Numbered from the stretch's first letter, positions 28,044-63,512 are shown. The stretch is 64,000 bases of DNA from Minisyncoccia bacterium (GCA_038215155.1 JBBQRF010000002.1:50712-114711); one strand, 5' to 3'. Notes: generated by a model not told the origin, from the letters alone. Program-made: numbers and translations.

Positions 28044-28090
28044 AATACCCCGAGCCGTGAATGCCGCTCGGGGTATTTTCTTTTATTTGC
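28044..28090 (+). terminator. Strong rho-independent terminator
   Basis: Perfect 12-bp stem aataccccgagc/gctcggggtatt followed by a T-rich tract. Confidence 0.8.
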
Positions 28091-28104
28091 TATAATTTCA
28101 GTGA

Positions 28105-29844: not shown

Positions 29845-29845
29845 A

Positions 29846-31997: not shown

Positions 31998-32000
31998 TTT

Positions 32001-32516
32001 ATGCAGAGCCGGTCCACAACAAAAGGGTTTTCTTTAATAGAGATGTTAGTTTACGTTGCCCTACTTAGCATTTTGCTTTTAGTAGTTATTAATAGTGTTA
32101 TTCTAATTATAAACTCATATAGAAATATTAAGACAACGGAAGTGTTGGAAAATGCCGGGTTAACCGCTATGGATAGATTAGAAGCAGAGATTCGAAATGC
32201 AAAAAGCATCGACGCGACAAATAGCGTATTTAATTCAAGTGGCACATCTAGTATTTTGACTCTTAATACTTCCACCACTACGCCAGCGAAGGTGAAATTT
32301 TATGCTACCTCCACTACTTTGGCGGTGGACGAAGACGGAGTATATAGTGGGCCGCTCATTTCCTCCAATGCTCGCCTAAAAACCCTGAGTCTCTGGCTCA
32401 TCAGTACCTCTACTTCACAAGCGGTAAAAATAGAGCTGGAAGTTGAAAGTGGAGTAGGTCCTTCTTATAAATCAGCGAAGTTTTATGACACAGCCATTTT
32501 AAGAGGAAGTTATTAA
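32001..32516 (+). CDS. Prepilin-type N-terminal cleavage/methylation domain protein
   Basis: TKGFSLIEMLVYVALLSILLLV. Confidence 0.85.
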   Translation: MQSRSTTKGFSLIEMLVYVALLSILLLVVINSVILIINSYRNIKTTEVLENAGLTAMDRLEAEIRNAKSIDATNSVFNSSGTSSILTLNTSTTTPAKVKFYATSTTLAVDEDGVYSGPLISSNARLKTLSLWLISTSTSQAVKIELEVESGVGPSYKSAKFYDTAILRGSY

Positions 32517-32520
32517 AATT

Positions 32521-34431
32521 ATGAAATTCATAAAGTCTATAAAGTCTATAAAGTCTATAAAGTCTATAAAGTCTATAAAGAATGGGTATTTTCAGTTTGG
32601 GAAAATAATGACATTACGGACGTTAAAACCTTACGGACGATACAATCAAAATGGCGGACAAGCTATGCTTATTGCGGTGATTTTCTTCTTATTTATTAGC
32701 CTTACTATTATTCTCGGCATTACAGTCCCTGTAGTAAATCACATTAAAGAAGTCACTCTATCGAGCAACTCTAAACAAAGTTATGTTCTTGCTGAAGCAC
32801 TTAATGAGGACGCTTACTATCGACTCAATCACAATAAAAATCTCTCTAGCACTTTCAGTCTTTCTTTAAATGGCGCCTCTTCTACCGCCACTGTCACCAC
32901 TAGCGGCCCCAATAAACAAGTTTTCTCTGTAGGATTGGATAATAAAATTAGTCGCTCCGTCAGTACTACTTTTAATCAAGGAGCAGGAGTTTCTTTTAAT
33001 TACGGAGTCCAGGCAGGACAGGGAGGATTCATTTTAAATGGTGGATCCAGAGTAAATGGAAATGTTTATGCAAATGGAGACATCGTAGCCACGAACGGAG
33101 TAGTTATTACCGGCTCTGCTGTCGCCGCTAATAGTGTGGCTCTCTCAGCCGATCAGGTTAATAATTCTCCGAGCACTCCATCAAGCTCCATAAATTTTCG
33201 TGATTCTGCTACCACTCAGGACCTTGCACAGAGTTTTCAAGTTTCCACTTCCACTCCGATCAATAAAGTTCAATTTTATTTGAAGAAAACAGGAAGCCCC
33301 GCTGATGCCACGGTTAAAATTGTCAGTGATAGCAGTGGTTCACCTTCTACCAACGATTTATTTCTCTTGGCGCCTAGTGGCAGCGACGGCACTCTCTTAA
33401 GTTCTCAAGTTGGAACTACTTATACTTGGGTAAATGTAGTTTTTCCCACAAACATTTCTCTTACGGCCGGCACTACGTATTGGTTAGTAATTGATAATGG
33501 TGCTAATAACGCTAGTAATTACTACACTATAGGAGCAAACAGTAATGGCTATGCAAATGGAGTAGGGAGGAATGGAAAATACAGCGGCACTTGGAATGCC
33601 TCAAGCGGACTAGATGCCTACTTTCAGATTTATTTAGGAGGATTGACTTCTACTATTGGTGGAAACACTTATGTGGGAGGAGTGAATGTAGGTACCGGTT
33701 CGGTGGGCGACGCCTGGGCCCATGATGTAGAAGGAGCCAGTGTGGCTGGCACTATTTATTGCCAAATAGGTAATCATAATAATAAAACTTGCGATACCTC
33801 TCGAGGAGACCCCTCTCCAGTAGGCCTTCCTGTTTCAGATGCCAATATTCTCCAATGGAAAACAGATGCGGCCGGCGGCACCATTATTAATGGAAATGTC
33901 ACCATTGGCTTTGCTGGAACGACGACTGGTCCTACAAAAATTAATGGCAATCTTACTATTAACGGCGGAGGCACTCTTACTTTGACAGGAGGGGTGTGGG
34001 TAACAGGAAATATCACTGTCTCCAATGGCGCTAAGGTCACCCTATCTCCATCATATGGAGCAAGCAGTGGAATTTTACTCTCCGATGGATGGATAAATTT
34101 AACCGGAGGGGGAGCGTTGAGCGGTTCGGGCACCACGGGCAGTTATTTAATGGTTCTTACGACTAGCGCCTGTCCCAACAGCGGCAATTGTAGTGGCTCC
34201 CCGAGCAATAACGCCCTCACAGTTACTGGGGGTGCGGGAGCGGTGGTAGTAAATGCTCAGAATGGCACCCTGGAACTTAGTGGAGGTTCAGGTCTCAAAG
34301 AAGCCACAGCCAATCTAATTGTAGATACTGGGGGAGCCACCCTCACTTACGATAGCGGTCTAGCTAATCAGAATTTTGTTAGCGGTCCATCTGGAGCTTG
34401 GAATGTAGCAAGTTGGCAGGAGGTGCCGTAG
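32521..34431 (+). CDS. Large pilus-associated protein (PilX/PilY1-like tip or adhesin candidate). TM anchor, then Gly/Thr/Asn-rich beta-helix-like repeats. The true start is possibly at 32605 (MTLRTLK) or 32662 (MLIAVIFF).
   Basis: Follows three pseudopilin genes. TM helix LIAVIFFLFISLTIILGI. Repeats such as INGNLTINGGGTLTLTGGVWVTGNITVSNGAKVTL. Confidence 0.6.
   Translation: MKFIKSIKSIKSIKSIKSIKNGYFQFGKIMTLRTLKPYGRYNQNGGQAMLIAVIFFLFISLTIILGITVPVVNHIKEVTLSSNSKQSYVLAEALNEDAYYRLNHNKNLSSTFSLSLNGASSTATVTTSGPNKQVFSVGLDNKISRSVSTTFNQGAGVSFNYGVQAGQGGFILNGGSRVNGNVYANGDIVATNGVVITGSAVAANSVALSADQVNNSPSTPSSSINFRDSATTQDLAQSFQVSTSTPINKVQFYLKKTGSPADATVKIVSDSSGSPSTNDLFLLAPSGSDGTLLSSQVGTTYTWVNVVFPTNISLTAGTTYWLVIDNGANNASNYYTIGANSNGYANGVGRNGKYSGTWNASSGLDAYFQIYLGGLTSTIGGNTYVGGVNVGTGSVGDAWAHDVEGASVAGTIYCQIGNHNNKTCDTSRGDPSPVGLPVSDANILQWKTDAAGGTIINGNVTIGFAGTTTGPTKINGNLTINGGGTLTLTGGVWVTGNITVSNGAKVTLSPSYGASSGILLSDGWINLTGGGALSGSGTTGSYLMVLTTSACPNSGNCSGSPSNNALTVTGGAGAVVVNAQNGTLELSGGSGLKEATANLIVDTGGATLTYDSGLANQNFVSGPSGAWNVASWQEVP
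32530..32580 (+). repeat. Perfect tandem repeat (ATAAAGTCT) x5.7
   Basis: ataaagtct repeated five times plus ataaag. It lies at the annotated 5' end (IKS x5) of the large pilus gene, or in its leader if translation starts at M29 or M48. Confidence 0.95.
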
Positions 34432-36794: not shown

Positions 36795-38495
36795 ATGAAG
36801 TCCTATAAAGTTAGAGAACCTCTCACTGAAGCAGAAAAAGAACCTTTAAAATCCTATCCGGAATTTTTGCAGCATCTTTTGCATTATCGCGGCCTCCGGT
36901 CTGAGGAGGCCGCCGAAGCCTTTCTCACTCCTCAATATGAGACCGGTATTCATGACCCCTACTTAATGAAAGATATGGAGAAAGCGGTTAGTCGCACTCT
37001 GCTTGCCATTGAAAAAAAGGAGAAAACTATTATTTACAGTGATTTTGATGCAGATGGCATTCCCGGAGCAGTCATTCTTCATGATTTTTTCAAAAAGATT
37101 GGTTATGAAAATTTTCAAAACTACATTCCTGATCGCCACAATGAAGGATATGGTTTAAATCTAAAAGCCATCGAGAAATTCCAGGAAATGGGAGCGGGCC
37201 TTTTAATTACCATTGATTGTGGTATTTCTAATTTTAAAGAAATTGAGCTAGCTAATCAGTCCGGGATGGATGTCATTATTACTGATCACCATCTTCCACA
37301 TGAAAAATTACCGCCAGCATTCGCTATTCTTAATTCCAAACAAAATGATTGTGGATATCCATTTAAAATGCTTTGTGGGGCAGGTGTAGTTTTTAAATTG
37401 GTTCAAGCCATTCTTTTGAAGAATAGATTCGGCATGAAAGAGGGAATAGAGAAATGGTTTTTAGACATGGCGGGATTGGCTACTCTCTCAGATATGGTTC
37501 CACTTGTCGGCGAGAATCGAATTTTTGCCCATTACGGATTAAAGGTATTGAGGAAATCGCCTCGTCCGGGATTACTCGAACTGTTTCGTCGCACTGATAT
37601 TAATCCACGCCATCTTTCAGAGGAGGATATTTCCTTTAGTCTAACGCCTAAAATAAACGCTGCCTCCAGGATGGGTTCACCCCAAGAAGCCTTTGAATTA
37701 CTTTCTACCAACGACCTCTCCCGGGCCCGCGAACTTTCTGAATCTTTAATGAAATTGAATGATGAGAGAAAAGGTGTGGTTGCTTCAACTGCTAAAGAGA
37801 TTAAAAAGATTTTGAATAATCGAGAGGTTGGAGATGTGATGGTCCTGGGTAATCCCGATTGGCGACCCAGTCTCCTCGGATTAGTGGCTAATAGTCTGGC
37901 AGAGCAATATCAGAAACCAGTTTTTCTGTGGGGACGGGAGGGGAGCGGCCTACTTAAAGGCTCAGGCCGCTCGAATGGATTAATTGATCTTTCGGAATTG
38001 CTTAAAGAAGTAAGTACGGAAATTATTTCAGAATATGGCGGTCACGCCTTTGCTGGAGGGTTCAGCTTGTTTCCAGAGAAGGTTCATTTATTGGAGGAAG
38101 AGTTAAATAAGGCCTATAAAAAAGTGAAATCAGATGCTATTCCCGCCAAAAATTTTGTAGATAAAAAATTTTCTATTGATGAAGTGAATTGGGAAGTTTA
38201 CAAAATAATTGAGAATTTATCACCATACGGTGAAGGAAACCTTAAGCCGGTTTTTCTGTTCGAGAATGTAGAAATTGCGGAGATACGAAATTTTGGTAAG
38301 GCAAAGAATCATCTAGAGCTATCATTTACTAATAGTTTAGGAAAAAAGATTAAAGCTATCGGTTTCTTTATGAGTGATCAATTTGGATCACAAAAATTAG
38401 AAGCAAAAGGAAAAATTAATCTAGTAGCTAATTTTGAAAAATCCAATTATCGGAATTTTCCGGAACTCCGCTTGCGAATTGTAGATATTATTTAA
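36795..38495 (+). CDS. recJ: Single-stranded-DNA-specific exonuclease RecJ
   Basis: DHH domain (SDFDADGI, ITDHH), DHHA1 (GGHAFAGG), and C-terminal OB-like region. Confidence 0.9.
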   Translation: MKSYKVREPLTEAEKEPLKSYPEFLQHLLHYRGLRSEEAAEAFLTPQYETGIHDPYLMKDMEKAVSRTLLAIEKKEKTIIYSDFDADGIPGAVILHDFFKKIGYENFQNYIPDRHNEGYGLNLKAIEKFQEMGAGLLITIDCGISNFKEIELANQSGMDVIITDHHLPHEKLPPAFAILNSKQNDCGYPFKMLCGAGVVFKLVQAILLKNRFGMKEGIEKWFLDMAGLATLSDMVPLVGENRIFAHYGLKVLRKSPRPGLLELFRRTDINPRHLSEEDISFSLTPKINAASRMGSPQEAFELLSTNDLSRARELSESLMKLNDERKGVVASTAKEIKKILNNREVGDVMVLGNPDWRPSLLGLVANSLAEQYQKPVFLWGREGSGLLKGSGRSNGLIDLSELLKEVSTEIISEYGGHAFAGGFSLFPEKVHLLEEELNKAYKKVKSDAIPAKNFVDKKFSIDEVNWEVYKIIENLSPYGEGNLKPVFLFENVEIAEIRNFGKAKNHLELSFTNSLGKKIKAIGFFMSDQFGSQKLEAKGKINLVANFEKSNYRNFPELRLRIVDII

Positions 38496-38520: not shown

Positions 38521-39249
38521 ATGGAAGTAATAAAAGAAATGTCTGTTGTTTTCACTGACGGAGCATCCAAAGGAAATCCTGGACCCGGAGGTTGGGGGGC
38601 GATTGCAATCATTTCCGATGATTCGGGAACTCATGTCACTGAATTAGGGGGCAGAGAGGAAAATGTAACTAATAATCAGATGGAATTAAGGGGAGCAATT
38701 GAAGCCTTACGGCATCTTTCACTTTCTGAAATTGATCTACTGATATACACTGACTCTTCGTATCTTATAAATGGTATTACTAAATGGTTGAGTGCCTGGA
38801 GAATGAATGAGTGGAAAACTAAAAACAAGAAAGTAGTTTTAAACCGCGAGCTCTGGGAAGAATTAGCCGAACTAACTGAAAATAAAAATATACAGTGGAA
38901 ATACGTAGGAGGACATTCAGGCATTGTCGGCAATGAAAGAGCTGATGTCATCGCCACAGAATTTGCTGAGGGGAAGCGGCCTAAGCTTTTTAGCAGACCT
39001 CTTAAAGAATATGGAATGGATATTCTAAATATTGATCTCGACGAGAGTAAGGCCACAGAAAAAACCGCCGCCCGCCGCCATTCAAAGGCGGCGGCCTACT
39101 CTTACGTCAGTTTAGTAGACGATAAAATTGAGACTCATCAAAATTGGAAAGACTGCGAGGCCCGGGTAAAAGGAAAATCTGGCGCTAGATTTAAGAAGGT
39201 TGTAAGCAAAGAAGAAGAAGGATCGGTAATTCAGCAGTTTTCTAACTAA
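38521..39249 (+). CDS. rnhA: Ribonuclease HI with an ~90-aa basic C-terminal extension
   Basis: TDGASKGNPGPGGWGA...TNNQMELRGAIEAL...YTDSSYLINGITKWLSAWRMNEWKT...GHSGIVGNERADVIA. Confidence 0.88.
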   Translation: MEVIKEMSVVFTDGASKGNPGPGGWGAIAIISDDSGTHVTELGGREENVTNNQMELRGAIEALRHLSLSEIDLLIYTDSSYLINGITKWLSAWRMNEWKTKNKKVVLNRELWEELAELTENKNIQWKYVGGHSGIVGNERADVIATEFAEGKRPKLFSRPLKEYGMDILNIDLDESKATEKTAARRHSKAAAYSYVSLVDDKIETHQNWKDCEARVKGKSGARFKKVVSKEEEGSVIQQFSN

Positions 39250-39290: not shown

Positions 39291-40757
39291 GTGAAATTTT
39301 ATCTTTTTGTCTGGAGTTTTTTTGGTGGTGTCTTTTTAATTTCCGTCTTTAGCCTAGTGAGTTCGGCCATCATCCTCGGAGTAATATTCTCCGGTGTGAT
39401 AGTTGTAGGCGCCCTAAGAAAAGAATACCTACTTATCAGTTTTTTATTTTTTCTGGCTCTTATAATGGGTGCTTGTCGGATGGAAGTAGACAAGCACCGT
39501 ACTCCCAACCAAATATTGGTGGATAGTTTAAATAAATTTGTAACCATTCGAGGGATTTTAGTAGATGAGCCAGACCAAAGAGAAAATAGCACTAATTTAG
39601 TCGTCTTGCCGAACGTAGTATCTGAAAAAATACTCCCGGGTAGCACATCGGAGAAAATTCTGGTTCGAGCAATGGCTGATTCGAATTTTCAATACGGTGA
39701 CGAAGTGGAACTAAAGGGCAGGTTAGAGTTACCACAGAAAATCCTCTCCGGCAACGCTGATTTTAATTATCCAGAATATCTAGCCAAGGATGATATTTAT
39801 TATCTGATACCGCGAGCAGATGTAAGAAAAATTTCTACGGGACACGGAAATATAACTAAACGCACTCTCTTTAAACTAAAAGCTAACTTTCTTAGAAATA
39901 TAAACGCCATATTGCCCCAACCGCACGCTGGTTTTGTTGAGGGTATCGTAATTGCCGGTAAGAAATCTTTACCTAAAAACCTTCTGACAGAATTTCAGAG
40001 GACGGGTACTCTCCAAATTATTGTTCTATCAGGGTACAACATTACTATTGTTGCCGAGGCAATGATGAGGCTCTTTTCCTATCTAATGGGCGCCGGATTT
40101 TCCTACTTCGCCGGCGCCTTCTCCATCATCTTATTTTCCATAATGGCAGGAGGTTCTGCCACGGTCATTCGGGCCACTTTAATGGCTCTCATCTCTATAT
40201 TAGCTAAAGCCACTCATCGAGTTTACCAAGCAAAGCGCGCTCTATTTTTAGCCGGATTTTTAATGGTTTTTCAAAATCCGCGTATTTTAGTATATGACCC
40301 TTCCTTTCAATTAAGTTTTCTGGCCACCCTAGGGTTGATGGTTCTTTCACCTTATTTTGAAAAACACTTACAATTCTTGCCTGAAAAATTTCAGATTAGA
40401 AACACTGCAAGCGCCACTCTCTCTGCTCAAGTTTTCGTTACGCCTTTAATTCTTTATCAGATTGGTCAACTTTCGTTAGTGTCGGTGCCGGCTAATATGC
40501 TAATGATGTTAGCCATCCCTATCCTCATGCTCTCTGGTTTCTTGACCGGACTCTGGGCTTTTGTAAGTAAGATTGTTGCTTTTCCTCTAGCTTTTATTTC
40601 TTACACACTAGTCTCATACGAGCTACTAGTTTTGAAAATATTTTCCCGCACTCCCTTCGCTTCCATCACCCTCCCATTTTCTGTTTGGCTTTTAGCAATC
40701 AGTTACGGCCTCTATATTTTTATGTGGATAAAAAGTTATAAAGGCCGCTCTGCTTAG
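39291..40757 (+). CDS. comEC: ComEC/Rec2 family DNA-internalisation channel (membrane competence domain, DUF4131 plus competence domain). It lacks the fused MBL domain.
   Basis: Polytopic membrane protein. OB-like N-terminal part (FVTIRGILVDEPDQREN...) and a ComEC core with many TM helices. Confidence 0.8.
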   Translation: MKFYLFVWSFFGGVFLISVFSLVSSAIILGVIFSGVIVVGALRKEYLLISFLFFLALIMGACRMEVDKHRTPNQILVDSLNKFVTIRGILVDEPDQRENSTNLVVLPNVVSEKILPGSTSEKILVRAMADSNFQYGDEVELKGRLELPQKILSGNADFNYPEYLAKDDIYYLIPRADVRKISTGHGNITKRTLFKLKANFLRNINAILPQPHAGFVEGIVIAGKKSLPKNLLTEFQRTGTLQIIVLSGYNITIVAEAMMRLFSYLMGAGFSYFAGAFSIILFSIMAGGSATVIRATLMALISILAKATHRVYQAKRALFLAGFLMVFQNPRILVYDPSFQLSFLATLGLMVLSPYFEKHLQFLPEKFQIRNTASATLSAQVFVTPLILYQIGQLSLVSVPANMLMMLAIPILMLSGFLTGLWAFVSKIVAFPLAFISYTLVSYELLVLKIFSRTPFASITLPFSVWLLAISYGLYIFMWIKSYKGRSA

Positions 40758-41353
40758 ATAGCTTTCTCAAATCTCTCCTCCACTTTAGTCCAATTAAGAT
40801 TGGTAAAAAAAGCTTCCACATATTTTTTCTTTTCTGAAGGAGGATAATCGAGCATGTAAGAATGCTCCCACATATCTAATCCAAGTAAAAAACGAAGTGA
40901 ATTAAGATGACCTAAATGCTGCTCGTCTACCCAGGCGTTTAATAACTTGCCAGTTCGAGGATCTAAATAAAGATTGGCCCAACCCACTCCGCGAGTCATG
41001 GCAATCATTTTAAATTGATCAAGCCACCCAGGAAAACTGCCAAACTGATCAACAATACTTTTATAGAATGAGCCTCCTGCACTTGCTTCCAAAGCTCCGC
41101 CTTCAAGTTGTTCAAAGTAATACTCGTGGTTTCTCATCCCGTCAAATTCAAAACCGAGGCGCCGTTGGACCTCTCCCATAACAAATGAATTTTTTCCTAG
41201 ATCGCTCGAGAGCTCTTTTAATTTCTCCTGAATTAAATTGGTGTGCTTAACATAGCCTGCGTAAAGGTTTAGATGTTCCTCGATGGTTTTGGCTGAAATT
41301 CCTTTTAATTCCGGAATGTTGAATTTTTTTTCAGCATATATTTCATTTGGCAT
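40754..41353 (-). CDS. sodA: Fe/Mn superoxide dismutase
   Basis: HH..H.. N-terminal metal ligands and C-terminal DMWEHSYMLDY signature. Confidence 0.92.
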   Translation of the reverse strand: MPNEIYAEKKFNIPELKGISAKTIEEHLNLYAGYVKHTNLIQEKLKELSSDLGKNSFVMGEVQRRLGFEFDGMRNHEYYFEQLEGGALEASAGGSFYKSIVDQFGSFPGWLDQFKMIAMTRGVGWANLYLDPRTGKLLNAWVDEQHLGHLNSLRFLLGLDMWEHSYMLDYPPSEKKKYVEAFFTNLNWTKVEERFEKAI

Positions 41354-41502
41354 ATTAGTGGTGACTCGAAACTGAGTTTAGAATTAGTTAGTAATAATTT
41401 TAAGTTGCTTTAGTTATAATAACATTTCTGAAATGGTTCAAAACTAACACATTAATAGGATTAGCAGCCATTCTGCTTTTAGTAAACGCGGGTGTTTGGT
41501 AC

Positions 41503-42291
41503 GTGGCGATCTGGGAAAATCGGGGTAATTTCATGAAAGTAGCCTTCTTAAGTATCGGTCAAGGCGACTCTACTTTGATTGAGTCGCCTAATGGAAATAA
41601 AATCTTGATTGATGCTGGGCCGAATGGCATCATAACGGAAAGCGAGCTAGCTAAAGAACTACCTTTCTATGATCGTCATATAAATTTAATTATTCTTACT
41701 CATCCAGACTCTGATCACGTGGCGGGATTCTTAAAAATTATAGAGGACTATCAAGTGGACCAAGTGATGGAGCCTGGTTCTCACGCTGAGACTGCCACTT
41801 ATAAAAAAATTGAAGAAGCAATCGCCGCAAAAAATATTCCAAAAGTTTTAGCGAGGCGGGGCATGCGCATCATTCTAGATAAGAAAAGAAAAATCTATCT
41901 CACCATCCTATTTCCTGATCGAGATCCTACGAATTGGGAGACAAACACTAGTTCTATTGTTTCTCGGCTTACTTACGGTCGAGAGTCATTCCTTTTTCAG
42001 GGAGATTCTCCACAAAAAATAGAAAACTATTTGGTTTCGCTTGACGGCCCCAATTTAAAAAGCGAGGTCTTAAAGGTGGGACACCATGGTTCAAAAACTT
42101 CTACAAGCGACTTGTATGCCTCTACCGTCAACCCCACCTATGCCGTTATTTCTGCCGGTCTAAATAATCGCTATAGTTTTCCGCATCCGCAGACCTTGGA
42201 TATATTAAATAAATATCACACCAATATATTGAAAACATATGACTCGGGAACAATAGTGATGAAATCAGACGGACAGACAATTAGTTATTAA
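41503..42291 (+). CDS. MBL-fold metallo-hydrolase. It matches the C-terminal beta-lactamase-like domain of ComEC, encoded here as a separate gene.
   Basis: ILTHPDSDHVAG (HxHxDH), ...LKVGHHGS.... Signal/TM N-terminus. Confidence 0.8.
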   Translation: MAIWENRGNFMKVAFLSIGQGDSTLIESPNGNKILIDAGPNGIITESELAKELPFYDRHINLIILTHPDSDHVAGFLKIIEDYQVDQVMEPGSHAETATYKKIEEAIAAKNIPKVLARRGMRIILDKKRKIYLTILFPDRDPTNWETNTSSIVSRLTYGRESFLFQGDSPQKIENYLVSLDGPNLKSEVLKVGHHGSKTSTSDLYASTVNPTYAVISAGLNNRYSFPHPQTLDILNKYHTNILKTYDSGTIVMKSDGQTISY

Positions 42292-56460: not shown

Positions 56461-57075
56461 ATGGATGAAGAAAATAAAAATTTAAATAACGAAGGAACTG
56501 TAGAAGAAGCGGCCGGAGCCGCCGTTCCGGCGGCTCCGGCTCAAGTTCCTTCACAAGGAGATCGTCCACAACGAGGGTCTTTTCGTAATGCTCGCACAAA
56601 AAACGAACGAAAACCTCGCCGTGAGCCCCGTGCTAAACCAGAATTCGATCAACGAATCATTGCTATCCGCCGAGTAACTCGAGTGGCTGCTGGAGGTCGC
56701 CGCTTCAGTTTCAGCGTGGCACTAGTAGCTGGTAATCGAAAGGGCCAAGTGGGGGTTGGAACCGGTAAAGCCGGCGATACATCTTTAGCAATCGAGAAAG
56801 CTTTGAAAAATGCCAAGAAGAATATGATTACAGTAAGAACAACTAGCGACATGTCTATTGCGCATGAAATTAAGGCCAAATTCTCAAGTGCTCGGGTGGA
56901 AATTTTCCCTGCCAAAGGGCGTGGAATTGCCGCGGGAAGTTCCGTTCGGGACGTCATTGATCTAGCTGGTATTAAAGATGTTACCGCCAAGCTTCACTCT
57001 GGAACTAAGAATAAACTCAATAACGCCAGGGCCGCTATCAAAGCTCTGTCGAGTCTTAAAGTGGTCAAGTCCTAA
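56461..57075 (+). CDS. rpsE: 30S ribosomal protein S5 with an ~45-aa acidic/Ala-Pro-rich N-terminal extension
   Basis: RVTRVAAGGRRFSFSVALVAGNRKGQVGVGTGKA. Confidence 0.95.
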   Translation: MDEENKNLNNEGTVEEAAGAAVPAAPAQVPSQGDRPQRGSFRNARTKNERKPRREPRAKPEFDQRIIAIRRVTRVAAGGRRFSFSVALVAGNRKGQVGVGTGKAGDTSLAIEKALKNAKKNMITVRTTSDMSIAHEIKAKFSSARVEIFPAKGRGIAAGSSVRDVIDLAGIKDVTAKLHSGTKNKLNNARAAIKALSSLKVVKS

Positions 57076-57099
57076 AAGCCCTAAAGAAAGACTAAAAAC

Positions 57100-57540
57100 A
57101 TGCAATCAAATCACCTAAAAAGAATTCATAAAAATAAAAAGTCCCTCGCAGTTGGTCGTGGTGGAAAAAGAGGGAAGACCGCCGGACGCGGAACTAAGGG
57201 TCAGAAAGCTCGCTCTGGGCGCAAACTCCGCCCTGAGTTGCGGGATATCATTAAAAAATTACCAAAACTACGCGGCCGTGGCAAAAATTCCTTTCTAAGT
57301 ATTCAAGAAAAACCAATCACTATTAATTTAGCGGTTCTCGAAAAGGTATTTAATAATGGTGACAAAATTTCAGTTACCACTTTGGTCCAAAAGAAAGTAG
57401 TAAATCTCTATAAAGGAAAATCTCCCGTAGTGAAAATTCTGGGAGATGGTGAACTAACCAAAAAACTAAACATTCAAGGATGCTTGGCTTCTTCTGGCGC
57501 TAAAAGTAAAATAGAAAAAGCTGGCGGTACGATAAAGTAA
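57100..57540 (+). CDS. rplO: 50S ribosomal protein L15 (no L30 gene between rpsE and rplO)
   Basis: GRGGKRGKTAGRGTKGQKARSG. Confidence 0.95.
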   Translation: MQSNHLKRIHKNKKSLAVGRGGKRGKTAGRGTKGQKARSGRKLRPELRDIIKKLPKLRGRGKNSFLSIQEKPITINLAVLEKVFNNGDKISVTTLVQKKVVNLYKGKSPVVKILGDGELTKKLNIQGCLASSGAKSKIEKAGGTIK

Positions 57541-57550: not shown

Positions 57551-58822
57551 ATGAATACATTTATAGAAAAATTAAAAGCAATCTTCAGTGATCCAGCAAT
57601 CCGCAAGCGGATTATTTTTGTTTTAGTGGCGCTAGTGCTTTTTCGTCTATTAGCCGCTATTCCTGTTCCAAATATTGATCACGCCCAATTAGCTAACTTC
57701 TTTAATAACAACGCATTCTTCGGCCTACTAGGAGTTTTCTCAGGTGGCGGACTCTCTACTCTTTCAATTATTATGTTAGGAGTAGCTCCTTACATCACTG
57801 CCTCCATTATTATGCAGCTATTAACTATGATGTCCCCACGCCTTAAGGCAATGTATCAAGAGGAGGGTGAAGCTGGACGAATGAAATTCACTCAATATTC
57901 TCGCCTTCTGACGCTACCTTTGGCTATTCTTCAAGCTTTTGCTTACATGATTCTCTTCCAGAAACAGGGAGTAGTGGCGCATTTAGATACCTTAGGATTG
58001 GTCACCAATATTTTAGTTATTTCTGCGGGCTCAATTTTATTAATGTGGATTGGCGAATTAATTACGGAATTCGGTGTTGGGAACGGAGTCTCAATTCTAA
58101 TTTTTGCCGGTATTGTGTCACGTCTCCCTCAGGATTTATTGCAGCTATTTTATACTTTTGATCAATCACAAATTCCAACTTACTTACTATTTTTAGCAGG
58201 GGCTATCTTAATTGTCTACGGCGTTGTGGTGGTGACAGAAGCGGAAAGACCAATTCCTGTCACCTATGCTAAACAAGTCAGAGGAAACAAAGTCTATGGC
58301 GGGGTTTCAACTTATCTTCCATTGCGCCTAAATCAATCTGGAGTCATTCCCATTATTTTTGCTCTCTCAATTTTACTTTTTCCTCAAATGATTTTCCGTT
58401 TTTTTCAAACATCTTCACATGTCTGGATTGCCTCCACCTCCGCGACGATATTGTCCCTATTGGCTAATCAATTAGTTTACGGCATTTCTTATTTCGTCCT
58501 AGTTTTTCTTTTCACATATTTTTATACAGCCGTTACTTTTGATCCAGGGACTATATCGACTAATCTTCAGAAGAGTGGCGCTTTTATTCCCGGCGTACGC
58601 CCCGGAAACTCTACTTCGGAATACATGAGTAAGGTTCTAACCAGAATTACTCTAGTGGGGGCACTTTTCCTCGGAGTCATCGCCGTTCTGCCACTTGTCG
58701 CTCGAGCGTTCACAGGTAATCAGTCGCTAGCCATTGGAGGAACCGCACTTCTCATTGCCGTGTCCGTGGTTTTGGATTTAGTTAAGAAAATTGATGCGCA
58801 GCTCGGTATGCGCGAATATTAG
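57551..58822 (+). CDS. secY: Preprotein translocase subunit SecY
   Basis: 10-TM protein. GGLSTLSIIMLGVAPYITASII. Position after rplO. Confidence 0.97.
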   Translation: MNTFIEKLKAIFSDPAIRKRIIFVLVALVLFRLLAAIPVPNIDHAQLANFFNNNAFFGLLGVFSGGGLSTLSIIMLGVAPYITASIIMQLLTMMSPRLKAMYQEEGEAGRMKFTQYSRLLTLPLAILQAFAYMILFQKQGVVAHLDTLGLVTNILVISAGSILLMWIGELITEFGVGNGVSILIFAGIVSRLPQDLLQLFYTFDQSQIPTYLLFLAGAILIVYGVVVVTEAERPIPVTYAKQVRGNKVYGGVSTYLPLRLNQSGVIPIIFALSILLFPQMIFRFFQTSSHVWIASTSATILSLLANQLVYGISYFVLVFLFTYFYTAVTFDPGTISTNLQKSGAFIPGVRPGNSTSEYMSKVLTRITLVGALFLGVIAVLPLVARAFTGNQSLAIGGTALLIAVSVVLDLVKKIDAQLGMREY

Positions 58823-59463: not shown

Positions 59464-60234
59464 ATGATTAAACTAAAGACAGCAGAAGAAATTAAAAAAT
59501 TGCGTCAAGGAGGAAAAATCCTTGCCGCCATTCTCAATGAAATTGCCGGACGCCTTGTGCCCGGTACCAATACTAAGGACCTCAATGTTTTCGCTGATGA
59601 GCTTTGTAAGGCACAGCAAGTTATTCCTGTTTTTCTTAACTATCAGCCTGAAGGCGCCGCTCGACCATACCCTGCTTCAATTTGTATTTCAATTAATGAT
59701 GAAATTGTTCACGGCATTCCCAATAAGGGAAGTGGCCGAATTTTAAAAGAAGGAGATATCGTTTCTCTAGACATGGGCATTAGTCATGACGGAATGATTG
59801 TTGATAGTGCTATTACATTTGGCGTAGGAAAGATTGATGATTCCGCTACGAGATTATTAGCGGCGGGGAAGGAGACCCTGGCGGCGGCTATCGCCGCCGC
59901 CAGGGTCGGCAGCCGCACCGGCGACATCGGTGCGGCCATAGAAGCCGTTGCTACTCGCGCTGGCTTCACCCTTCCAGAAGAGCTCGGCGGCCACGGCGTC
60001 GGCCACGCCGTTCATGAAGACCCTTTCATTCCAAATTTTGGCAAAGCCGGGGAAGGAGTGATACTTAAAGCTGGCATGGTTCTCGCCATTGAGCCCATGC
60101 TCAATGAAGGTAGCAAAGAAACCTTTGTAGATAAAGACGGTTACACTTTTCGTACCACAGACGGCAAGAGAAGCTGCCATTTTGAACACACTATTGCCAT
60201 CTCTGATAAAGGACCAGAAATATTAACTAAATAA
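59464..60234 (+). CDS. map: Methionine aminopeptidase type I
   Basis: Pita-bread fold metal ligands D..D..H..E..E (ISLDMG...HGIP...EPM). Confidence 0.93.
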   Translation: MIKLKTAEEIKKLRQGGKILAAILNEIAGRLVPGTNTKDLNVFADELCKAQQVIPVFLNYQPEGAARPYPASICISINDEIVHGIPNKGSGRILKEGDIVSLDMGISHDGMIVDSAITFGVGKIDDSATRLLAAGKETLAAAIAAARVGSRTGDIGAAIEAVATRAGFTLPEELGGHGVGHAVHEDPFIPNFGKAGEGVILKAGMVLAIEPMLNEGSKETFVDKDGYTFRTTDGKRSCHFEHTIAISDKGPEILTK

Positions 60235-60262
60235 AACTCTCTGAGATAGGCGTGATATAATT

Positions 60263-63049
60263 TTGTTGATGGAAGCACCTATTAGCACTAGTCCAGAAAC
60301 TAAATTTTCTTCAGCCGAAGAAGAGCTTCAATATTTGCGGGAGAAGATTGCGGAAAAAGAACGCGAACTCTCTAAAAATAAAGAGCAGTTTAACCGAGAG
60401 GAAGTAATTAGATCTGAACTAAAAGAATATAAAAACCAGCATCCGGCGGATGTTTTAGATAAAGGCCATGCCATGCTCGAATCGCATGTTGATGCGATAG
60501 TTTTAAATCTGTCTCCCGAATCTCATGATGCAAAAATGAGTGAGCTTCTCGGCTTGCTCCAAGAAAAGGGCATTATGAATGCGTTGTCAGTAGTGGAGAA
60601 AATGAATAATCCCCATATTGAAGACGATTTCCACCGCTTCCTAGTGGAATATATTAAGCAGGGATTTCCAGTCGAGGGGCTAAAAGAAAAAACTCTCATC
60701 GCCAAGGCTCTCCGCCACACTCTCTATGAAATTTCCTTGCCTATGGACGTTGAAAAGGACGAAAAAACTCACGGTCTAAAAGAAGTTTTATCCTCTATGG
60801 AGCAATTTTATGCGGGCATGCTTTCCGTATCTCTAAAGCATGCCGATCTGCGGGCTGAAGAAAACTTCTTTACCATCGAGCTCGCCAACTCTATCGGAAG
60901 TCAAGAATTTATTTTTTACGCTTCAGTTCCCGATGCTAAGCGAGACTTATTTGAAAAACAATTACTTTCCATTTTTCCAAAAGCCACCATTACTCTTCAG
61001 ACAAATGATTACAATGTTTTCACTGATCTTGGTGCTACTGCTGGATCCTATGGAGTTCAATCGACTAATCCAATTTTTCCAATTAAAAATTATGATCAAT
61101 TCAATTTCGACCCTCTAAACGTTCTTTTAAATACTTTTTCTAAATTAGAACAGCACGGAGAAGGGGCAGCTATTCAGTTAGTTTTTAATCCAGCGGGAGA
61201 TTATTACACCTCGCGCTACAAAGACGCCCTAAAAGAAATTCAAAAGGGCGTCCCATTGAAGAAAGCCATTGATATCAAACATAGTTTAGTCGGAGAATTA
61301 TTTAAGACTAGTAAAAATGCTGCCTTGGATTTAGCAGTCGGCACTATAAAAGGTGATTCAAAGGAAAAATCTTCGACCGATGAGAAGACTCTTGAAAATA
61401 TCCGAGAGAAGATAGAAAGTCCGGTTATTGAGGCTAATTTGCGGATTATCACCTCAGCTAAGACAGAATATCGGGCGAAGGAAATTCTTTCGGAAATCCA
61501 ATCGGCCTTTAATCAATTTGATAATACTACCGGTAATGCTATTAGATTCCGAGAGGAAAAAGGTTCTACTCTAGCCAATCTAGTGCGTCATTTTTCCTTT
61601 CGATACTTTGATAAAGATGAATCTCTTAAAATAAATCTGAAAGAGGCTACTACTTTAATGCACTTTCCAAGCGCCGGAGTGGTCCACTCCGCCGAGCTTC
61701 GCTCGGCTCATGCAGCCACCGCTCCGGCGCCCGTTGATTTGGGGAATGAGGGCATTCTTATTGGAATTAATCGTCATCGCAATCTTGAGACGAAAATCCA
61801 CATGGCTCCCGAAGATCGTCTGCGTCACTTTTATGCCGTCGGACAAACTGGTACAGGCAAGACCACTTTCCTTAAGAACATGATCATCCAAGATATTAGA
61901 AATGGTGATGGTGTCTGTATGATTGATCCTCACGGTTCTGATATTCAGGACATTCTCGCTAACATTCCCCAATCTCGTTACGAGGACGTTATTTATTTTG
62001 ATCCAAGCTACACGCCCCGCCCAATGGCTCTAAACATGCTTGAATACGACCCACGTTACCCCGAGCAGAAGACTTTCGTTGTAAATGAAATGCTCTCTAT
62101 CTTCAATAAACTTTTTGATATGAAAGTGGCTGGAGGTCCTATGTTTGAACAATACTTTCGAAACGCCACCATGCTCGTCATTGAAGATCCGGAGACTGGT
62201 AACACCCTTTTAGATGTTTCGCGTGTTTTAGCTCAAAAAAGTTTTCGCGAGTTGAAACTCTCACGTTGTAAAAATCCAATCGTTGTTCAGTTTTGGCGAG
62301 ACATTGCAGAGAAAGCCGGAGGAGAATCATCACTTGCGAATATTGTTCCCTACATTACTTCTAAATTTGACGTCTTTTTATCCAATGACATCATGCGGCC
62401 GATTATTGCCCAAGAACATTCTTCATTTAACTTTCGAGAGATCATGGATAATCGTAAGATCTTGCTGGTAAATTTAGCCAAGGGTCGTCTCGGTGATATT
62501 AACGCTAATCTCATCGGTCTAATTTTAGTAGGGAAAATTTTAATGTCCGCGCTTTCTCGAGTAGATTCTCTTGGCCAAGACTTACCACCTTTTTATCTAT
62601 ACATTGATGAGTTTCAGAACATTACCACTGATTCTATTGCCACCATTCTTTCTGAAGCACGAAAGTACAAACTCTCCCTTACAATTGCTCACCAATTTAT
62701 TAAGCAATTAGAAGAGAAAATAAAAGATGCTGTCTTTGGAAACGTGGGAACTATGGCTTCTTTTAGAGTAGGTAGCGATGATGCAGAGTTTCTAGAAAAA
62801 CAATTTGCTCCAGTCTTTTCAGCCCACGATTTAATGAATGTGGACAATCATAATGCTTACATTAAAATGCTTTCTCACGGCAAGCCGATTAAACCTTTCA
62901 GTATTGAGCAGTTAGGATTTCTGCCAAAAGGTAATGCGGACTTAATAGATAAGTTGAAGGAGTTATCATATTTGAAATTTGGCGAAGAGAGGGAGCTAGT
63001 AGAGGGGCGAATTATGGAGAAGTATCGCGCCGCTGCTACTAAGGTTTAA
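60263..63049 (+). CDS. Large P-loop NTPase of the FtsK/HerA/TraD-TraG (type IV secretion coupling protein-like, 'T4SS DNA-binding domain') superfamily. Uncharacterised ~480-aa N-terminal region.
   Basis: Walker A AVGQTGTGKTTF. Hydrophobic beta-strand plus Walker B FYLYIDEFQN. TIAHQ sensor-like motif. No TM helices evident. Confidence 0.7.
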   Translation: MLMEAPISTSPETKFSSAEEELQYLREKIAEKERELSKNKEQFNREEVIRSELKEYKNQHPADVLDKGHAMLESHVDAIVLNLSPESHDAKMSELLGLLQEKGIMNALSVVEKMNNPHIEDDFHRFLVEYIKQGFPVEGLKEKTLIAKALRHTLYEISLPMDVEKDEKTHGLKEVLSSMEQFYAGMLSVSLKHADLRAEENFFTIELANSIGSQEFIFYASVPDAKRDLFEKQLLSIFPKATITLQTNDYNVFTDLGATAGSYGVQSTNPIFPIKNYDQFNFDPLNVLLNTFSKLEQHGEGAAIQLVFNPAGDYYTSRYKDALKEIQKGVPLKKAIDIKHSLVGELFKTSKNAALDLAVGTIKGDSKEKSSTDEKTLENIREKIESPVIEANLRIITSAKTEYRAKEILSEIQSAFNQFDNTTGNAIRFREEKGSTLANLVRHFSFRYFDKDESLKINLKEATTLMHFPSAGVVHSAELRSAHAATAPAPVDLGNEGILIGINRHRNLETKIHMAPEDRLRHFYAVGQTGTGKTTFLKNMIIQDIRNGDGVCMIDPHGSDIQDILANIPQSRYEDVIYFDPSYTPRPMALNMLEYDPRYPEQKTFVVNEMLSIFNKLFDMKVAGGPMFEQYFRNATMLVIEDPETGNTLLDVSRVLAQKSFRELKLSRCKNPIVVQFWRDIAEKAGGESSLANIVPYITSKFDVFLSNDIMRPIIAQEHSSFNFREIMDNRKILLVNLAKGRLGDINANLIGLILVGKILMSALSRVDSLGQDLPPFYLYIDEFQNITTDSIATILSEARKYKLSLTIAHQFIKQLEEKIKDAVFGNVGTMASFRVGSDDAEFLEKQFAPVFSAHDLMNVDNHNAYIKMLSHGKPIKPFSIEQLGFLPKGNADLIDKLKELSYLKFGEERELVEGRIMEKYRAAATKV

Positions 63050-63052: not shown

Positions 63053-63162
63053 GGAAAATCCTCCTATGTCCTAAGACTTTTGTCGAGGCGCGTCAGTCAA
63101 TTTGGGTCCGCTAGGCCAAGTCTTACCCTCGCTAAAAGTCTCAGGACACATCCGGATTTTCC
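63053..63162. repeat. Copy 2 of the palindromic repeat element (see 20585-20662), here with extended outer inverted repeats (ggaaaatcc...ggattttcc)
   Basis: Core of about 64 nt is roughly 90% identical to copy 1. Nested inverted repeats. Confidence 0.8.
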
Positions 63163-63225
63163 AGGCAGATTTCTTCAAATGGTTTTTTAGTTAAGTAGAA
63201 AGGAGAGGTATTTTCAGGCCTTCGG

Positions 63226-63410
63226 CATTTTCTATTTAGAGAGACTGCGCAGCCAATTAGAAAATAACAGCCAAAAAATTTGGTACCGGAGGCGCGCATA
63301 GGCGGAGACGATAGCGGCGCAGGCAAATTTTTGGGCGCCTTATTTTCTTGATTGGCGAGCGAGAACAAATCGCTAGCAAGCGATTATGTGTGCTCTCTAA
63401 ATAGAAAATG
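63226..63410. mobile_element. MITE-like 185-bp element with perfect 18-bp terminal inverted repeats and a GC-rich interior
   Basis: cattttctatttagagag (63226-63243) and ctctctaaatagaaaatg (63393-63410) are exact reverse complements. Confidence 0.55.
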
Positions 63411-63512
63411 CGGAAGGCGTTAAGAAAAAAACAGACTTAATATACAAACTAGAACAATATGCCGGTTTCATGTAAGATATGATTCTTACTTATTAAATTC
63501 TAAATTTCCAAA

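What the first reader, a model, noticed from the sequence alone, without database searches (positions are those of the whole stretch)
60263..63049. 928-aa TraD/FtsK/HerA-like ATPase sits where infA-rpmJ-rpsM-rpsK-rpsD-rpoA-rplQ should follow map
- The ribosomal super-operon is otherwise canonical and tightly packed. After map, bacteria almost universally continue with infA, rpmJ, rpsM, rpsK, (rpsD), rpoA and rplQ.
- Here a 2.8-kb gene follows instead. It encodes a soluble P-loop NTPase (Walker A GQTGTGKTT, Walker B YIDEFQN, TIAHQ) of the DNA-translocase / T4SS-coupling-protein type, with an uncharacterised 480-aa N-terminal half.
- Two repeat elements and then ndk follow it.
- This organism also encodes type IV pili, ComEC, ComM and RecJ nearby. 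A TraD/VirD4-like DNA-binding ATPase here could therefore be part of an uncharacterised DNA uptake, export or symbiosis-associated transfer apparatus. Alternatively it could be a remnant of an integrated element that displaced the alpha operon.
Basis: partly seen in the sequence, partly recalled or inferred. Interest (0 to 1): 0.7.

Follow-up and report, generated by a model that had tools for sequence, protein, structure and literature searches.

The report
Soluble coupling-protein-like ATPase, core in Patescibacteria
The gene after map is not an inserted element but a strongly conserved Patescibacteria core gene: a conjugation "coupling-protein"-type ATPase whose membrane anchor is replaced by a soluble domain folded like the N-terminal domain of VirB4, the core ATPase of type IV secretion systems; what it does is untested.

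Summary
A 926-aa gene (true start ATG 60269) follows map, has intact Walker A/B motifs and no membrane segment. No alpha-operon gene lies anywhere in the 64-kb window.

It is not an inserted element.
- At least 594 species-representative Paceibacteria genomes carry a full-length orthologue.
- About half of 83 sampled loci keep the order secY-adk-map-[0-2 genes]-ATPase-ndk.
- GC content is normal, no integrase is adjacent, and no plasmid or phage relative exceeds 34% identity.
- Its ATPase domain (median 67.5% identity) is more conserved than SecY, S5, L6, L15, Map, Adk or Ndk in the same genomes.

By sequence it belongs to the type IV coupling protein (T4CP: VirD4/TraD/TrwB) lineage. A distant two-domain homologue sits beside the relaxase gene in a Tcp-type Bacillus conjugation module.

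A 2025 survey already counted orphan T4CP homologues in 96% of Patescibacteria genomes. The fold assignment, the fixed fusion and the conserved position appear undescribed.

Best guess: a hexameric motor docking on the Patescibacteria T4SS through its VirB4-like domain. A T4SS-independent housekeeping role is a serious rival.

The parts
60253..60261 (+). Extended -10 promoter box TGATATAAT, 7 nt upstream of the ATG (leaderless-type geometry)
   Evidence: Sequence. A TATAAT-like box starts at -16..-12 from the ATG in 47 of 58 family loci, against a flat background. The same geometry occurs at other window genes. Its function as a promoter is inferred, not shown.
60269..63049 (+). Gene for the 926-aa DUF8128 + T4CP-like ATPase (the ORF listing ORF starts two codons earlier, at TTG 60263)
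60269..60682 (+). Helical N-terminal extension, residues 3-140. It is present in Paceibacteria forms. It is absent from the ~820-840-aa Gracilibacteria/Peregrinibacteria forms and is not covered by the alignments to plasmid and phage homologues.
   Evidence: Secondary structure; domain limits.
60683..61702 (+). Core of DUF8128 (residues ~141-480): an alpha/beta domain with a VirB4-N-terminal-domain-like fold
61703..63046 (+). FtsK/HerA-superfamily ATPase domain of the coupling-protein (VirD4/TraD/TrwB) lineage
61841..61864 (+). Walker A motif, GQTGTGKT (residues 527-534). G527-K533 are invariant in 81 homologues; residue 534 is T or S across the family.
62060..62452 (+). All-helical insertion within the nucleotide-binding domain (residues ~600-730), in the position of the all-alpha domain of TrwB-type proteins
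62594..62611 (+). Walker B motif, YLYIDE (residues 778-783). D782 and E783 are invariant.
62681..62695 (+). TIAHQ motif (residues 807-811). A809, H810 and Q811 are invariant. It lies inside the TraG-D_C match (residues 776-845).
63053..63162 (.). Hairpin repeat A (36-nt arms). A second copy lies at 20577-20662. It is not part of the gene; it fills the spacer where relatives have small ORFs.
63213..63423 (.). Hairpin element B (31-nt outer arms plus inner stems). It is not part of the gene.

Best explanation
What it is. The gene encodes a vertically inherited, chromosomal core protein of Patescibacteria from the type IV coupling protein (T4CP: VirD4/TraD/TrwB) lineage of monoderm conjugation systems. 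The usual N-terminal membrane anchor is replaced by a soluble ~340-residue domain (DUF8128) with the fold of the VirB4 N-terminal domain. Paceibacteria add a ~140-residue helical extension in front of it.

Shown here: the lineage assignment, the two-domain architecture, the lack of a membrane segment, the invariant ATP-binding and hydrolysis motifs, core-gene-level conservation, a conserved promoter of its own, and the lack of linkage to T4SS, relaxase or mobile-element genes.

Inferred mechanism. Like TrwB, VirB4 and HerA, it probably assembles into a hexameric ring that uses ATP to thread or hand over a polymer (DNA or unfolded protein). Its VirB4-like N-terminal domain would take the place of a membrane anchor. 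It would dock the ring onto the inner-membrane platform of the relaxase-less Patescibacteria T4SS (VirB3/VirB4/VirB8-type partners), in the way VirB4 N-terminal domains link protomers and contact VirB3 and VirB8.

Its place after map in the window is a lineage-wide gene order in this Paceibacteria clade, not a recent displacement of the alpha operon.
For: Lineage
- Pfam TraG-D_C (28 bits, cut-off 22), TrwB_AAD_bind, T4SS-DNA_transf and DUF87 all score above their cut-offs. NCBIfam gives SXT_TraD 1.8e-15, TOL TraD 1.2e-12 and the CD1115 VirD4-like family 4.5e-10; all three bit scores are far below the curated cut-offs.
- The family profile's best PDB sequence hits are TrwB (E 4e-4) and DotL (E 0.04), not VirB4.
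- hhalign to an 885-aa protein of B. subtilis plasmid NZ_CP154917 gives probability 99.7%, E 2e-25 over 653 columns, covering both domains. That gene directly precedes a Replic_Relax gene in an operon that also has TcpC and a TcpF-type VirB4. The family profile does not match that VirB4 (probability 0.9%).

Fold

Fixed architecture: in every full-length protein in the listed top 150 of 942 DUF8128 clusters, the domain is followed by the same ATPase.

Core-gene status
- At least 594 species representatives carry it, and it occurs in Paceibacteria, Gracilibacteria, Peregrinibacteria and Portnoybacteria.
- Median identity of the ATPase domain is 67.5%, against SecY 62.9, S5 61.6, L6 55.8, L15 54.1, Map 51.9, Ndk 42.4 and Adk 38.5 in 31 syntenic genomes.
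- The neighbours are housekeeping genes in two classes.

Own promoter.

Literature
- T4CP homologues occur in 2,918 of 3,035 Patescibacteria genomes. Only 148 of 5,713 lie near virB4, and relaxases are nearly absent (PMC12102498).
- pIP501 TraJ is a precedent for a T4CP without a membrane anchor, and VirB4 NTDs mediate protomer, VirB3 and VirB8 contacts (PMC12857230).
Against: - Docking on the T4SS is pure inference. No T4SS gene is near the gene in the window or in 86 related loci.
- No adjacent small membrane protein is conserved: 9 of 79 loci have one downstream and 10 of 79 upstream.
- T4CP homologues occur in more genomes (96%) than VirB4 does (80%).
- The T4CP homologue of S. epibionticum was not essential although the T4SS genes were. 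Whether that homologue carries DUF8128 was not checked.
- Similarity of the N-terminal domain to VirB4 is at the fold level only. The residue ranges of the structural alignments were not visible to me.
- Hexamer formation was not modelled.
Confidence: 0.55

Rival explanations
1. An exapted housekeeping motor that works independently of the T4SS. Under this reading it is a cytoplasmic hexameric DNA or nucleoprotein translocase of the HerA/FtsK type. It would act in chromosome maintenance, in processing incoming DNA or in nucleotide salvage, and would have kept only its ancestry from conjugation systems.
For: - It is never linked to virB4 in the loci examined.
- T4CP homologues occur in 96% of genomes against 80% for VirB4, and the published survey says exaptation cannot be ruled out.
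- It has no membrane segment and no conserved adjacent tether.
- Its neighbours are housekeeping or nucleic-acid genes: the ribosomal operon, ndk and a beta-CASP MBL-fold protein in Paceibacteria; dnaE, aspS and ruvB in Gracilibacteria.
- It is conserved above the level of SecY.
- The T4CP homologue is dispensable in S. epibionticum whereas the T4SS is essential.
- Two-domain homologues in phages (TP-84, Bacillus phage G) have no conjugation genes annotated nearby in the one context examined, TP-84.
Against: - The VirB4-NTD-like domain is otherwise known only from T4SS ATPases, where it makes T4SS-internal contacts.
- The nearest non-Patescibacteria homologue with an informative context sits in a conjugation operon.
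- No nuclease or other partner is consistently adjacent. The gene order with ndk and the beta-CASP gene holds in only about half of the loci and may reflect nothing more than inherited synteny.
Confidence: 0.3
2. A divergent VirB4 paralogue. Under this reading the whole protein descends from VirB4 (NTD plus CTD) and acts as a second VirB4-type assembly or energising ATPase, not as a substrate receptor.
For: - The two-domain order is the same as in VirB4.
- Like most VirB4 proteins, it has no membrane segment.
Against: - No VirB4-specific sequence model matches meaningfully: no AAA_10, CagE_TrbE_VirB or TIGR00929 hit, and only a 33-residue Walker-A match to VirB4_plasma.
- The family profile does not match a bona fide TcpF/VirB4 (probability 0.9%), yet it does match the T4CP-positioned protein of the same operon.
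- The TraG-D_C signature and the TrwB and DotL profile hits point to VirD4.
Confidence: 0.08
3. A remnant or cargo of an integrated conjugative or phage element that displaced the alpha operon.
For: - It belongs to a family typical of mobile elements.
- Distant homologues occur on Bacillus and Clostridium plasmids and in phages.
- Hairpin repeats lie directly downstream of the gene.
Against: - The position is conserved across many species.
- GC content (0.37-0.44) matches the flanking genes.
- No integrase, relaxase or T4SS genes are nearby.
- All plasmid, phage and IMG/VR relatives are at most 37% identical.
- The motifs are intact and conservation exceeds that of ribosomal proteins.
- No alpha-operon gene lies within 10 kb in any of the 83 loci, so the spc/alpha split is old and lineage-wide.
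Confidence: 0.02
4. The ATPase of an anti-phage defence system (HerA-, DptH- or MADS-like).
For: - PADLOC matches: mad8 2e-14, HerA 8e-6, DndH 3e-5.
Against: - The matches cover only the generic ATPase core.
- No effector partner (Sir2, nuclease, Dnd/Dpt genes) is adjacent in any locus.
- Near-universal presence and very strong conservation are the opposite of the patchy, fast-evolving pattern of defence genes.
Confidence: 0.03

Closest known systems
Type IV coupling proteins of the VirD4 family (TrwB of R388, TraD of F/SXT, DotL, Cag-beta)
   Same: - It has an FtsK/HerA-superfamily nucleotide-binding domain with Walker A and B motifs, an all-helical insertion and the TraG-D_C signature.
- These are its best sequence-profile relatives.
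   Different: - It has no N-terminal transmembrane helices. A ~480-residue soluble N-terminal region takes their place.
- It is not linked to relaxase or T4SS genes.
- It is chromosomal, near-universal in its lineage and very strongly conserved.
885-aa 'DUF87 domain-containing protein' of B. subtilis plasmid NZ_CP154917 (WP_345805471.1) and similar proteins on Shouchella and B. licheniformis plasmids
   Same: It has the same two-domain architecture, with the DUF8128-like core followed by the ATPase: hhalign probability 99.7%, E 2e-25, 653 columns. Its alignment to the family begins near its own N-terminus (residue 32), which leaves no room for a separate N-terminal membrane domain; hydrophobicity was not computed.
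   Different: - Identity is only about 23-24%.
- It sits next to a Replic_Relax gene in a Tcp-type conjugation operon that has TcpC and TcpF, so it presumably works as a true coupling protein there.
- It lacks the Paceibacteria helical extension and has an extra C-terminal tail.
- As far as I could find, it is itself uncharacterised.
VirB4 ATPases (TrwK of R388; VirB4 of Thermoanaerobacter pseudethanolicus, 4ag5)
   Same: - The domain order matches: an alpha/beta N-terminal domain followed by an ATPase domain.
- Each half finds VirB4 as its best structural match.
- Like VirB4, it has no membrane segment.
   Different: - It shows no match to VirB4 sequence models and no profile similarity to a TcpF-type VirB4.
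- It is not adjacent to virB3, virB6 or virB8.
TraJ of pIP501 (a coupling protein without a membrane domain, proposed to be tethered by the small membrane protein TraI)
   Same: It is a precedent for a soluble T4CP in a monoderm system (PMC12857230).
   Different: No small membrane protein is conserved next to this gene. No sequence comparison with TraJ was made here.
Orphan T4CP homologues of Patescibacteria catalogued by Quinonero-Coronel et al. 2025 (PMC12102498)
   Same: This is very probably the same set of genes: VirD4-type hits in 96% of genomes, rarely near virB4, with exaptation considered.
   Different: The paper does not describe the N-terminal domain, the fixed fusion, the fold, the conserved gene order or the degree of conservation. 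I could not confirm from the supplement that DUF8128 proteins are the 't4cp1' hits.

Membership tests
Type IV coupling protein (VirD4/TraD/TraG/TrwB family) | FtsK/HerA-superfamily nucleotide-binding domain with Walker A and B motifs that matches T4CP-specific sequence models | tested here: met
   TraG-D_C at 28.2 bits (cut-off 22), TrwB_AAD_bind at 23-26 bits (cut-off 20.5) and T4SS-DNA_transf at 21-22 bits (cut-off 20.1). SXT_TraD E 1.8e-15, far below the NCBIfam cut-off. The family profile hits TrwB at E 4e-4 and DotL at E 0.04. These matches are weak but consistent.
Type IV coupling protein (VirD4/TraD/TraG/TrwB family) | All-alpha domain inserted in the nucleotide-binding domain | tested here: met
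   The model has an all-helical insertion at about residues 601-729, between core strands. 345 of 420 TrwB residues superpose. This feature is not exclusive to T4CPs, because the VirB4 CTD also carries a helical bundle.
Type IV coupling protein (VirD4/TraD/TraG/TrwB family) | N-terminal transmembrane anchor | tested here: not met
   No hydrophobic segment lies within residues 1-480. The maximum 19-residue Kyte-Doolittle score there is 0.89. Exceptions such as pIP501 TraJ are known.
Type IV coupling protein (VirD4/TraD/TraG/TrwB family) | Encoded with a relaxase and/or mating-pair-formation (T4SS) genes | tested here: not met
   None is present in the 64-kb window, within about 8 kb in 83 Paceibacteria loci or in three loci from other Patescibacteria lineages. 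The distant plasmid homologue does meet this criterion.
Type IV coupling protein (VirD4/TraD/TraG/TrwB family) | Recruits substrates (relaxosome or effectors) to a T4SS; forms a hexamer with a central channel | not testable with these tools
   Only a monomer could be modelled, and there are no interaction data.
VirB4 ATPase | Two-domain fold: VirB4-type N-terminal domain plus RecA-like C-terminal ATPase | tested here: met
VirB4 ATPase | Matches VirB4 sequence models (AAA_10, CagE_TrbE_VirB, TIGR00929) | tested here: not met
   There are no such hits. hhalign to a TcpF-type VirB4 gives probability 0.9%.
VirB4 ATPase | Encoded next to virB3, virB6 or virB8-type genes | tested here: not met
HerA helicase | N-terminal HAS beta-barrel and an adjacent NurA-type nuclease (or a defence effector) | tested here: not met
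FtsK/SpoIIIE DNA translocase | FtsK_SpoIIIE motor signature, N-terminal membrane domain and C-terminal gamma domain | tested here: not met
Integrated mobile element (ICE or prophage remnant) | Patchy distribution, atypical composition, integrase or att repeats, close relatives on mobile elements | tested here: not met

The most novel reading that the evidence does not exclude
DUF8128 ATPases may be a VirB4/VirD4 'hybrid' that has become an indispensable core motor of Patescibacteria. A coupling-protein ATPase would use a VirB4-like N-terminal domain to occupy VirB4-type docking sites on the relaxase-less T4SS. It would then power the import or export of host-derived DNA, nucleotide polymers or proteins on which the epibiotic lifestyle depends. 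If so, the fusion would also show directly how coupling proteins engage the T4SS inner-membrane complex, a contact the 2025 T4SS review describes as still undefined.
Probability: 0.2. Interest if true: 0.8.

Novelty: new variant of a known kind. Interest (0 to 1): 0.5.

Why it matters
Patescibacteria make up a large share of bacterial diversity and depend on host cells. Their T4SS is essential in the one species tested, and its function is unknown.

This gene family is one of the most conserved proteins in Paceibacteria, above SecY and several ribosomal proteins. Yet it is annotated only as a 'TraM recognition domain' or 'DUF87' protein.

Two things follow from recognising it as a coupling-protein-lineage motor with a VirB4-like docking domain and no relaxase partner. 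First, it gives a concrete, testable handle on what the Patescibacteria T4SS, or an exapted derivative of it, moves. Second, it bears on an open structural question: how coupling proteins attach to the secretion machine.

For genome annotation, it shows that the break between the spc and alpha operons here is an ancestral gene order of the lineage. It is not an insertion scar.

Tried and rejected
- Sequence searches on the N-terminal 480 residues found nothing meaningful. I tried Pfam and an N-terminal-domain profile against PDB sequences. The best hits were spurious: SEA, MinC_N and ribosomal uS19.
- Rfam found only four tRNAs in the window and nothing in the spacer between the ATPase gene and ndk.
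- The simple promoter scan missed the conserved -10 box because there is no -35 match.
- Looking beyond the window's end failed. The exact protein is recorded only on a 4.4-kb contig that ends just after the gene. What follows ndk in this genome, and where the alpha operon lies, remain undetermined.
- A search for a conserved small membrane 'tether' ORF next to the gene was negative.
- The defence-system reading was rejected: PADLOC gives only generic ATPase-core hits and no partner gene is present.
- The integrated-element reading was rejected.
- I considered spending the last word-index protein search on a VirB4-NTD alignment for profile-profile comparison. I judged it unlikely to change the conclusion.
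Full report
OBSERVATION

The ORF at 60263..63049 (+) is real. It begins about 30 nt after the stop codon of map (59464..60234), and secY and adk precede map. The protein has no N-terminal hydrophobic segment.

The true start is almost certainly ATG 60269, which gives 926 aa.
- That methionine is conserved in at least 90% of 81 homologues.
- The exact 926-aa product is recorded on an independent 4.4-kb contig.
- An extended -10 box, TGATATAAT (60253-60261), lies 7 nt upstream of the ATG.

No alpha-operon gene is present anywhere in the 64-kb window. tblastn with E. coli IF1, L36, S13, S11, S4, RpoA and L17 finds nothing even at E<1. Control queries (L14, L16, S19) hit at 1e-30 to 1e-40.

The spacer before ndk (ATG 63513) holds two long hairpins, 63053-63162 and 63213-63423, with a fold z-score of -7.6.

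NOT AN INSERTION

GC content across the gene (0.37-0.44) matches the flanking genes.

The protein has more than 2,000 full-length homologues at 60-84% identity. Every hit that carries a source name comes from Patescibacteria/Paceibacterota.

Gene order across 83 loci:
- 40 have map upstream on the same strand.
- 48 have ndk downstream on the same strand.
- 35 have both.

The shared neighbourhood is spc operon-secY-adk-map-[0-2 small genes]-ATPase-[small ORFs]-ndk-DUF2238-beta-CASP/MBL protein, followed by rplT-rpmI-infC on the other strand. The other 30 loci have varied contexts with no shared mobile-element genes. No alpha-operon gene lies within 10 kb in any locus. The split between the spc and alpha operons is therefore old and lineage-wide.

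Plasmid, phage and IMG/VR collections hold only distant relatives, at most 37% identical.

Across 31 syntenic genomes the ATPase domain is more conserved than its housekeeping neighbours. Median identity to the window protein:
- ATPase domain: 67.5%
- SecY: 62.9%
- S5: 61.6%
- L6: 55.8%
- L15: 54.1%
- Map: 51.9%
- N-terminal domain: 42.5%
- Ndk: 42.4%
- Adk: 38.5%

This is the signature of a core gene under strong purifying selection.

OWN TRANSCRIPTION SIGNAL

In 47 of 58 family loci a TATAAT-like hexamer starts 16 to 12 nt upstream of the ATG, with the peak at -13/-12, against a flat background elsewhere. That spacing is typical of leaderless mRNAs. So the gene has its own conserved promoter and is not simply the last cistron of the ribosomal operon. 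The same geometry occurs at several other window genes (comM, xerC/D, pilB, recJ, rnhA, secY), so it is a habit of the organism and not peculiar to this gene. The promoter function is inferred, not shown.

WHAT THE ATPASE HALF IS

Sequence models point consistently but weakly to type IV coupling proteins.
- Pfam TraG-D_C, TrwB_AAD_bind, T4SS-DNA_transf and DUF87 all score just above their cut-offs. FtsK_SpoIIIE scores below its cut-off.
- NCBIfam gives SXT_TraD 1.8e-15, TOL TraD 1.2e-12 and the CD1115 VirD4-like family 4.5e-10, all far below the curated cut-offs.
- The family profile's best PDB sequence hits are TrwB (E 4e-4) and DotL (E 0.04).

WHAT THE N-TERMINAL HALF IS

The precomputed annotation calls it Pfam DUF8128 (PF26449). 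My Pfam copy, a domain-only profile against PDB sequences, and per-member Pfam scans found no sequence relative.

Foldseek agrees independently. Its top 14 hits are all TrwK/VirB4 chains (E 3e-6 to 2e-3, probability 1.00), followed by a sharp drop to unrelated folds.

The first ~140 residues are a helical extension specific to the Paceibacteria forms.

A FIXED FUSION FOUND ACROSS PATESCIBACTERIA

An exhaustive search with the N-terminal domain found 942 clusters at the 50%-identity level. In every full-length protein among the top 150 listed (about 800-1,120 aa), the domain is N-terminal to the same GQTGTGK[TS]/YLYIDEF ATPase.

A shorter ~820-840-aa form lacks the helical extension. It occurs in Gracilibacteria, Peregrinibacteria, Portnoybacteria and others. 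In two Gracilibacteria-type genomes it lies between dnaE-aspS and a peptidoglycan-binding protein, near tsaE, an M23/SLH peptidase and ruvB. That is again a housekeeping setting without T4SS, relaxase or integrase genes. A third locus, from Portnoybacteria, has a different context that also lacks such genes.

LINEAGE: A COUPLING PROTEIN, NOT VirB4

Distant homologues that cover both domains exist in Firmicutes mobile elements.

On the 27.5-kb B. subtilis plasmid NZ_CP154917, an 885-aa 'DUF87' protein aligns with the family profile over 653 columns spanning both domains (hhalign probability 99.7%, E 2e-25). It is the first gene of an operon with the order [this protein]-Replic_Relax-...-TcpC-...-TcpF-type VirB4 (836 bits)-.... 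Next to the relaxase gene is where a coupling-protein gene typically sits (PMC12857230). The family profile does not match that operon's VirB4 at all (probability 0.9%).

A 754-aa protein of Geobacillus phage TP-84 is also a two-domain homologue (probability 98.1%).

The window protein is therefore best described as a coupling-protein-lineage ATPase in which a VirB4-NTD-like soluble domain replaces the membrane anchor. The architecture resembles VirB4, but by sequence the protein is not a VirB4.

WHAT IS ALREADY KNOWN

Quinonero-Coronel et al. 2025 (PMC12102498) surveyed 3,035 Patescibacteria genomes.
- VirB4 occurs in 2,417 of them.
- 5,713 T4CP homologues occur in 2,918 of them, and only 148 of those genes lie near virB4.
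- Relaxases are nearly absent.
- The T4CP homologue of S. epibionticum was not essential although the T4SS genes were. The authors say exaptation 'cannot be ruled out'.

The role of the Patescibacteria T4SS is described as completely unknown. Effector delivery and DNA or nucleotide import are the suggestions on record (PMC11665869 and PMC12102498). pIP501 TraJ is a precedent for a coupling protein without a membrane domain.

A full-text search for 'DUF8128' found no paper. Neither the survey nor the 2025 T4SS review describes a VirB4-like N-terminal domain on a coupling protein. I could not confirm from the supplement that DUF8128 proteins are among the survey's 't4cp1' hits.

MECHANISM

Shown:
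- The ATP-binding and hydrolysis motifs are intact and invariant.
- The protein is soluble and has two domains.
- It is conserved at core-gene level.
- It is transcribed from its own promoter-like signal.
- It has no linkage to T4SS or relaxase genes.

Inferred: like its structural relatives, it probably forms a hexameric ring that moves a polymer using ATP. The N-terminal domain probably provides docking in place of a membrane anchor. The most economical target is the inner-membrane platform of the Patescibacteria T4SS, because in VirB4 this fold links protomers and contacts VirB3 and VirB8.

The main rival is that the protein has been exapted to a T4SS-independent housekeeping role, as a DNA or nucleoprotein translocase. 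Four observations favour that rival:
- T4CP homologues are more widespread than VirB4 (96% against 80% of genomes).
- The gene consistently lacks linkage to T4SS genes.
- Its neighbours are housekeeping and nucleic-acid genes.
- No conserved adjacent membrane tether exists.

Defence-system and integrated-element readings are rejected.

VERDICT

The 'TraD/VirD4-type ATPase' reading is supported and sharpened. The 'integrated remnant displacing the alpha operon' reading is not supported.

The family as a whole has been counted before, so this is a new variant of a known kind. What appears undescribed is the VirB4-NTD-like fold of DUF8128, the fixed fusion, the very high conservation, the conserved post-map position in Paceibacteria, and the link to Firmicutes plasmid and phage homologues.

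Interest is moderate (0.5). There is a real, testable lead on how coupling proteins dock and on what Patescibacteria T4SS-related motors do, but function remains inferred.

Noticed in passing
window 63053-63162 and 20577-20662: Hairpin repeat A (36-nt arms, 81% complementary) has a second copy, 89.5% identical over 86 nt, in the clpP-rsmE spacer. It looks like a dispersed REP/MITE-like element. An independent assembly of this locus ends about 75 nt after the ATPase stop codon, which is consistent with repeats breaking the assembly.
   Followed up: partly
window 63213-63423; L027 11652-11808: Hairpin element B is about 210 nt long, with 31-nt outer arms (90% complementary) and inner stems. The whole spacer, elements A and B together, folds with z = -7.6. 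A partial match (83% over 58 nt, opposite orientation) lies immediately downstream of the orthologous ATPase in another genome (L027). It has no Rfam family. Whether it is a mobile element or a structured RNA is unresolved.
   Followed up: partly
window, starts of 980-2584(-), 6963-7898(+), 16093-16410(+), 28105-29844(+), 36795-38495(+), 38521-39249(+), 57551-58822(+), 60269(+): Many genes have a TATAAT-like box ending about 6-8 nt before the start codon. This suggests that leaderless transcripts are common in this organism. The pattern is conserved for the ATPase gene in 47 of 58 related genomes.
   Followed up: partly
window 56461-57540: rpsE (S5) is followed directly by rplO (L15), with no rpmD (L30) between them. 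From my own knowledge, lack of L30 is a reported trait of Candidate Phyla Radiation genomes. S5 also has an Ala/Pro-rich N-terminal extension.
   Followed up: no
window 39291-42291: ComEC appears to be split. A Competence + DUF4131 protein lies at 39291-40757 and a separate metallo-beta-lactamase protein at 41503-42291. A superoxide dismutase gene lies between them on the opposite strand, at 40754-41353.
   Followed up: no
window 25044-34431: A block of surface or pilus genes. It begins with a 416-aa protein with a weak fn3 hit, a 204-aa protein with a Peptidase_S74 (endosialidase chaperone, phage tail-fibre-like) domain, and a 257-aa protein with no Pfam hit. Then come PilB (28105-29844), PilC (29846-31060), three pilin-like proteins (31057-32516) and a 636-aa protein with no Pfam hit.
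   Followed up: no
L094 5728-7989 (Geobacillus phage TP-84); Bacillus phage G gp156; SPO1-like and PBC5-like phages: Several Firmicutes phages encode two-domain homologues (DUF8128-like core plus ATPase) of unknown function. For TP-84, hhalign gives probability 98.1% over 642 columns. Some of these proteins are annotated as 'lipid A export ATP-binding/permease', which looks like a mis-annotation.
   Followed up: partly
L084 10709-12190; L085 10595-11854: In two Gracilibacteria-type genomes the orthologue is followed directly by a 419-493-aa PG_binding_1 protein, with an M23/SLH peptidase a few genes further on. This might hint at a cell-envelope connection, or it might be plain synteny.
   Followed up: no
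window 3008-3925(-): A 305-aa protein with no confident family. It gives only a weak hit (E 0.022) to 'Mobile element protein CD1107-like'.
   Followed up: no
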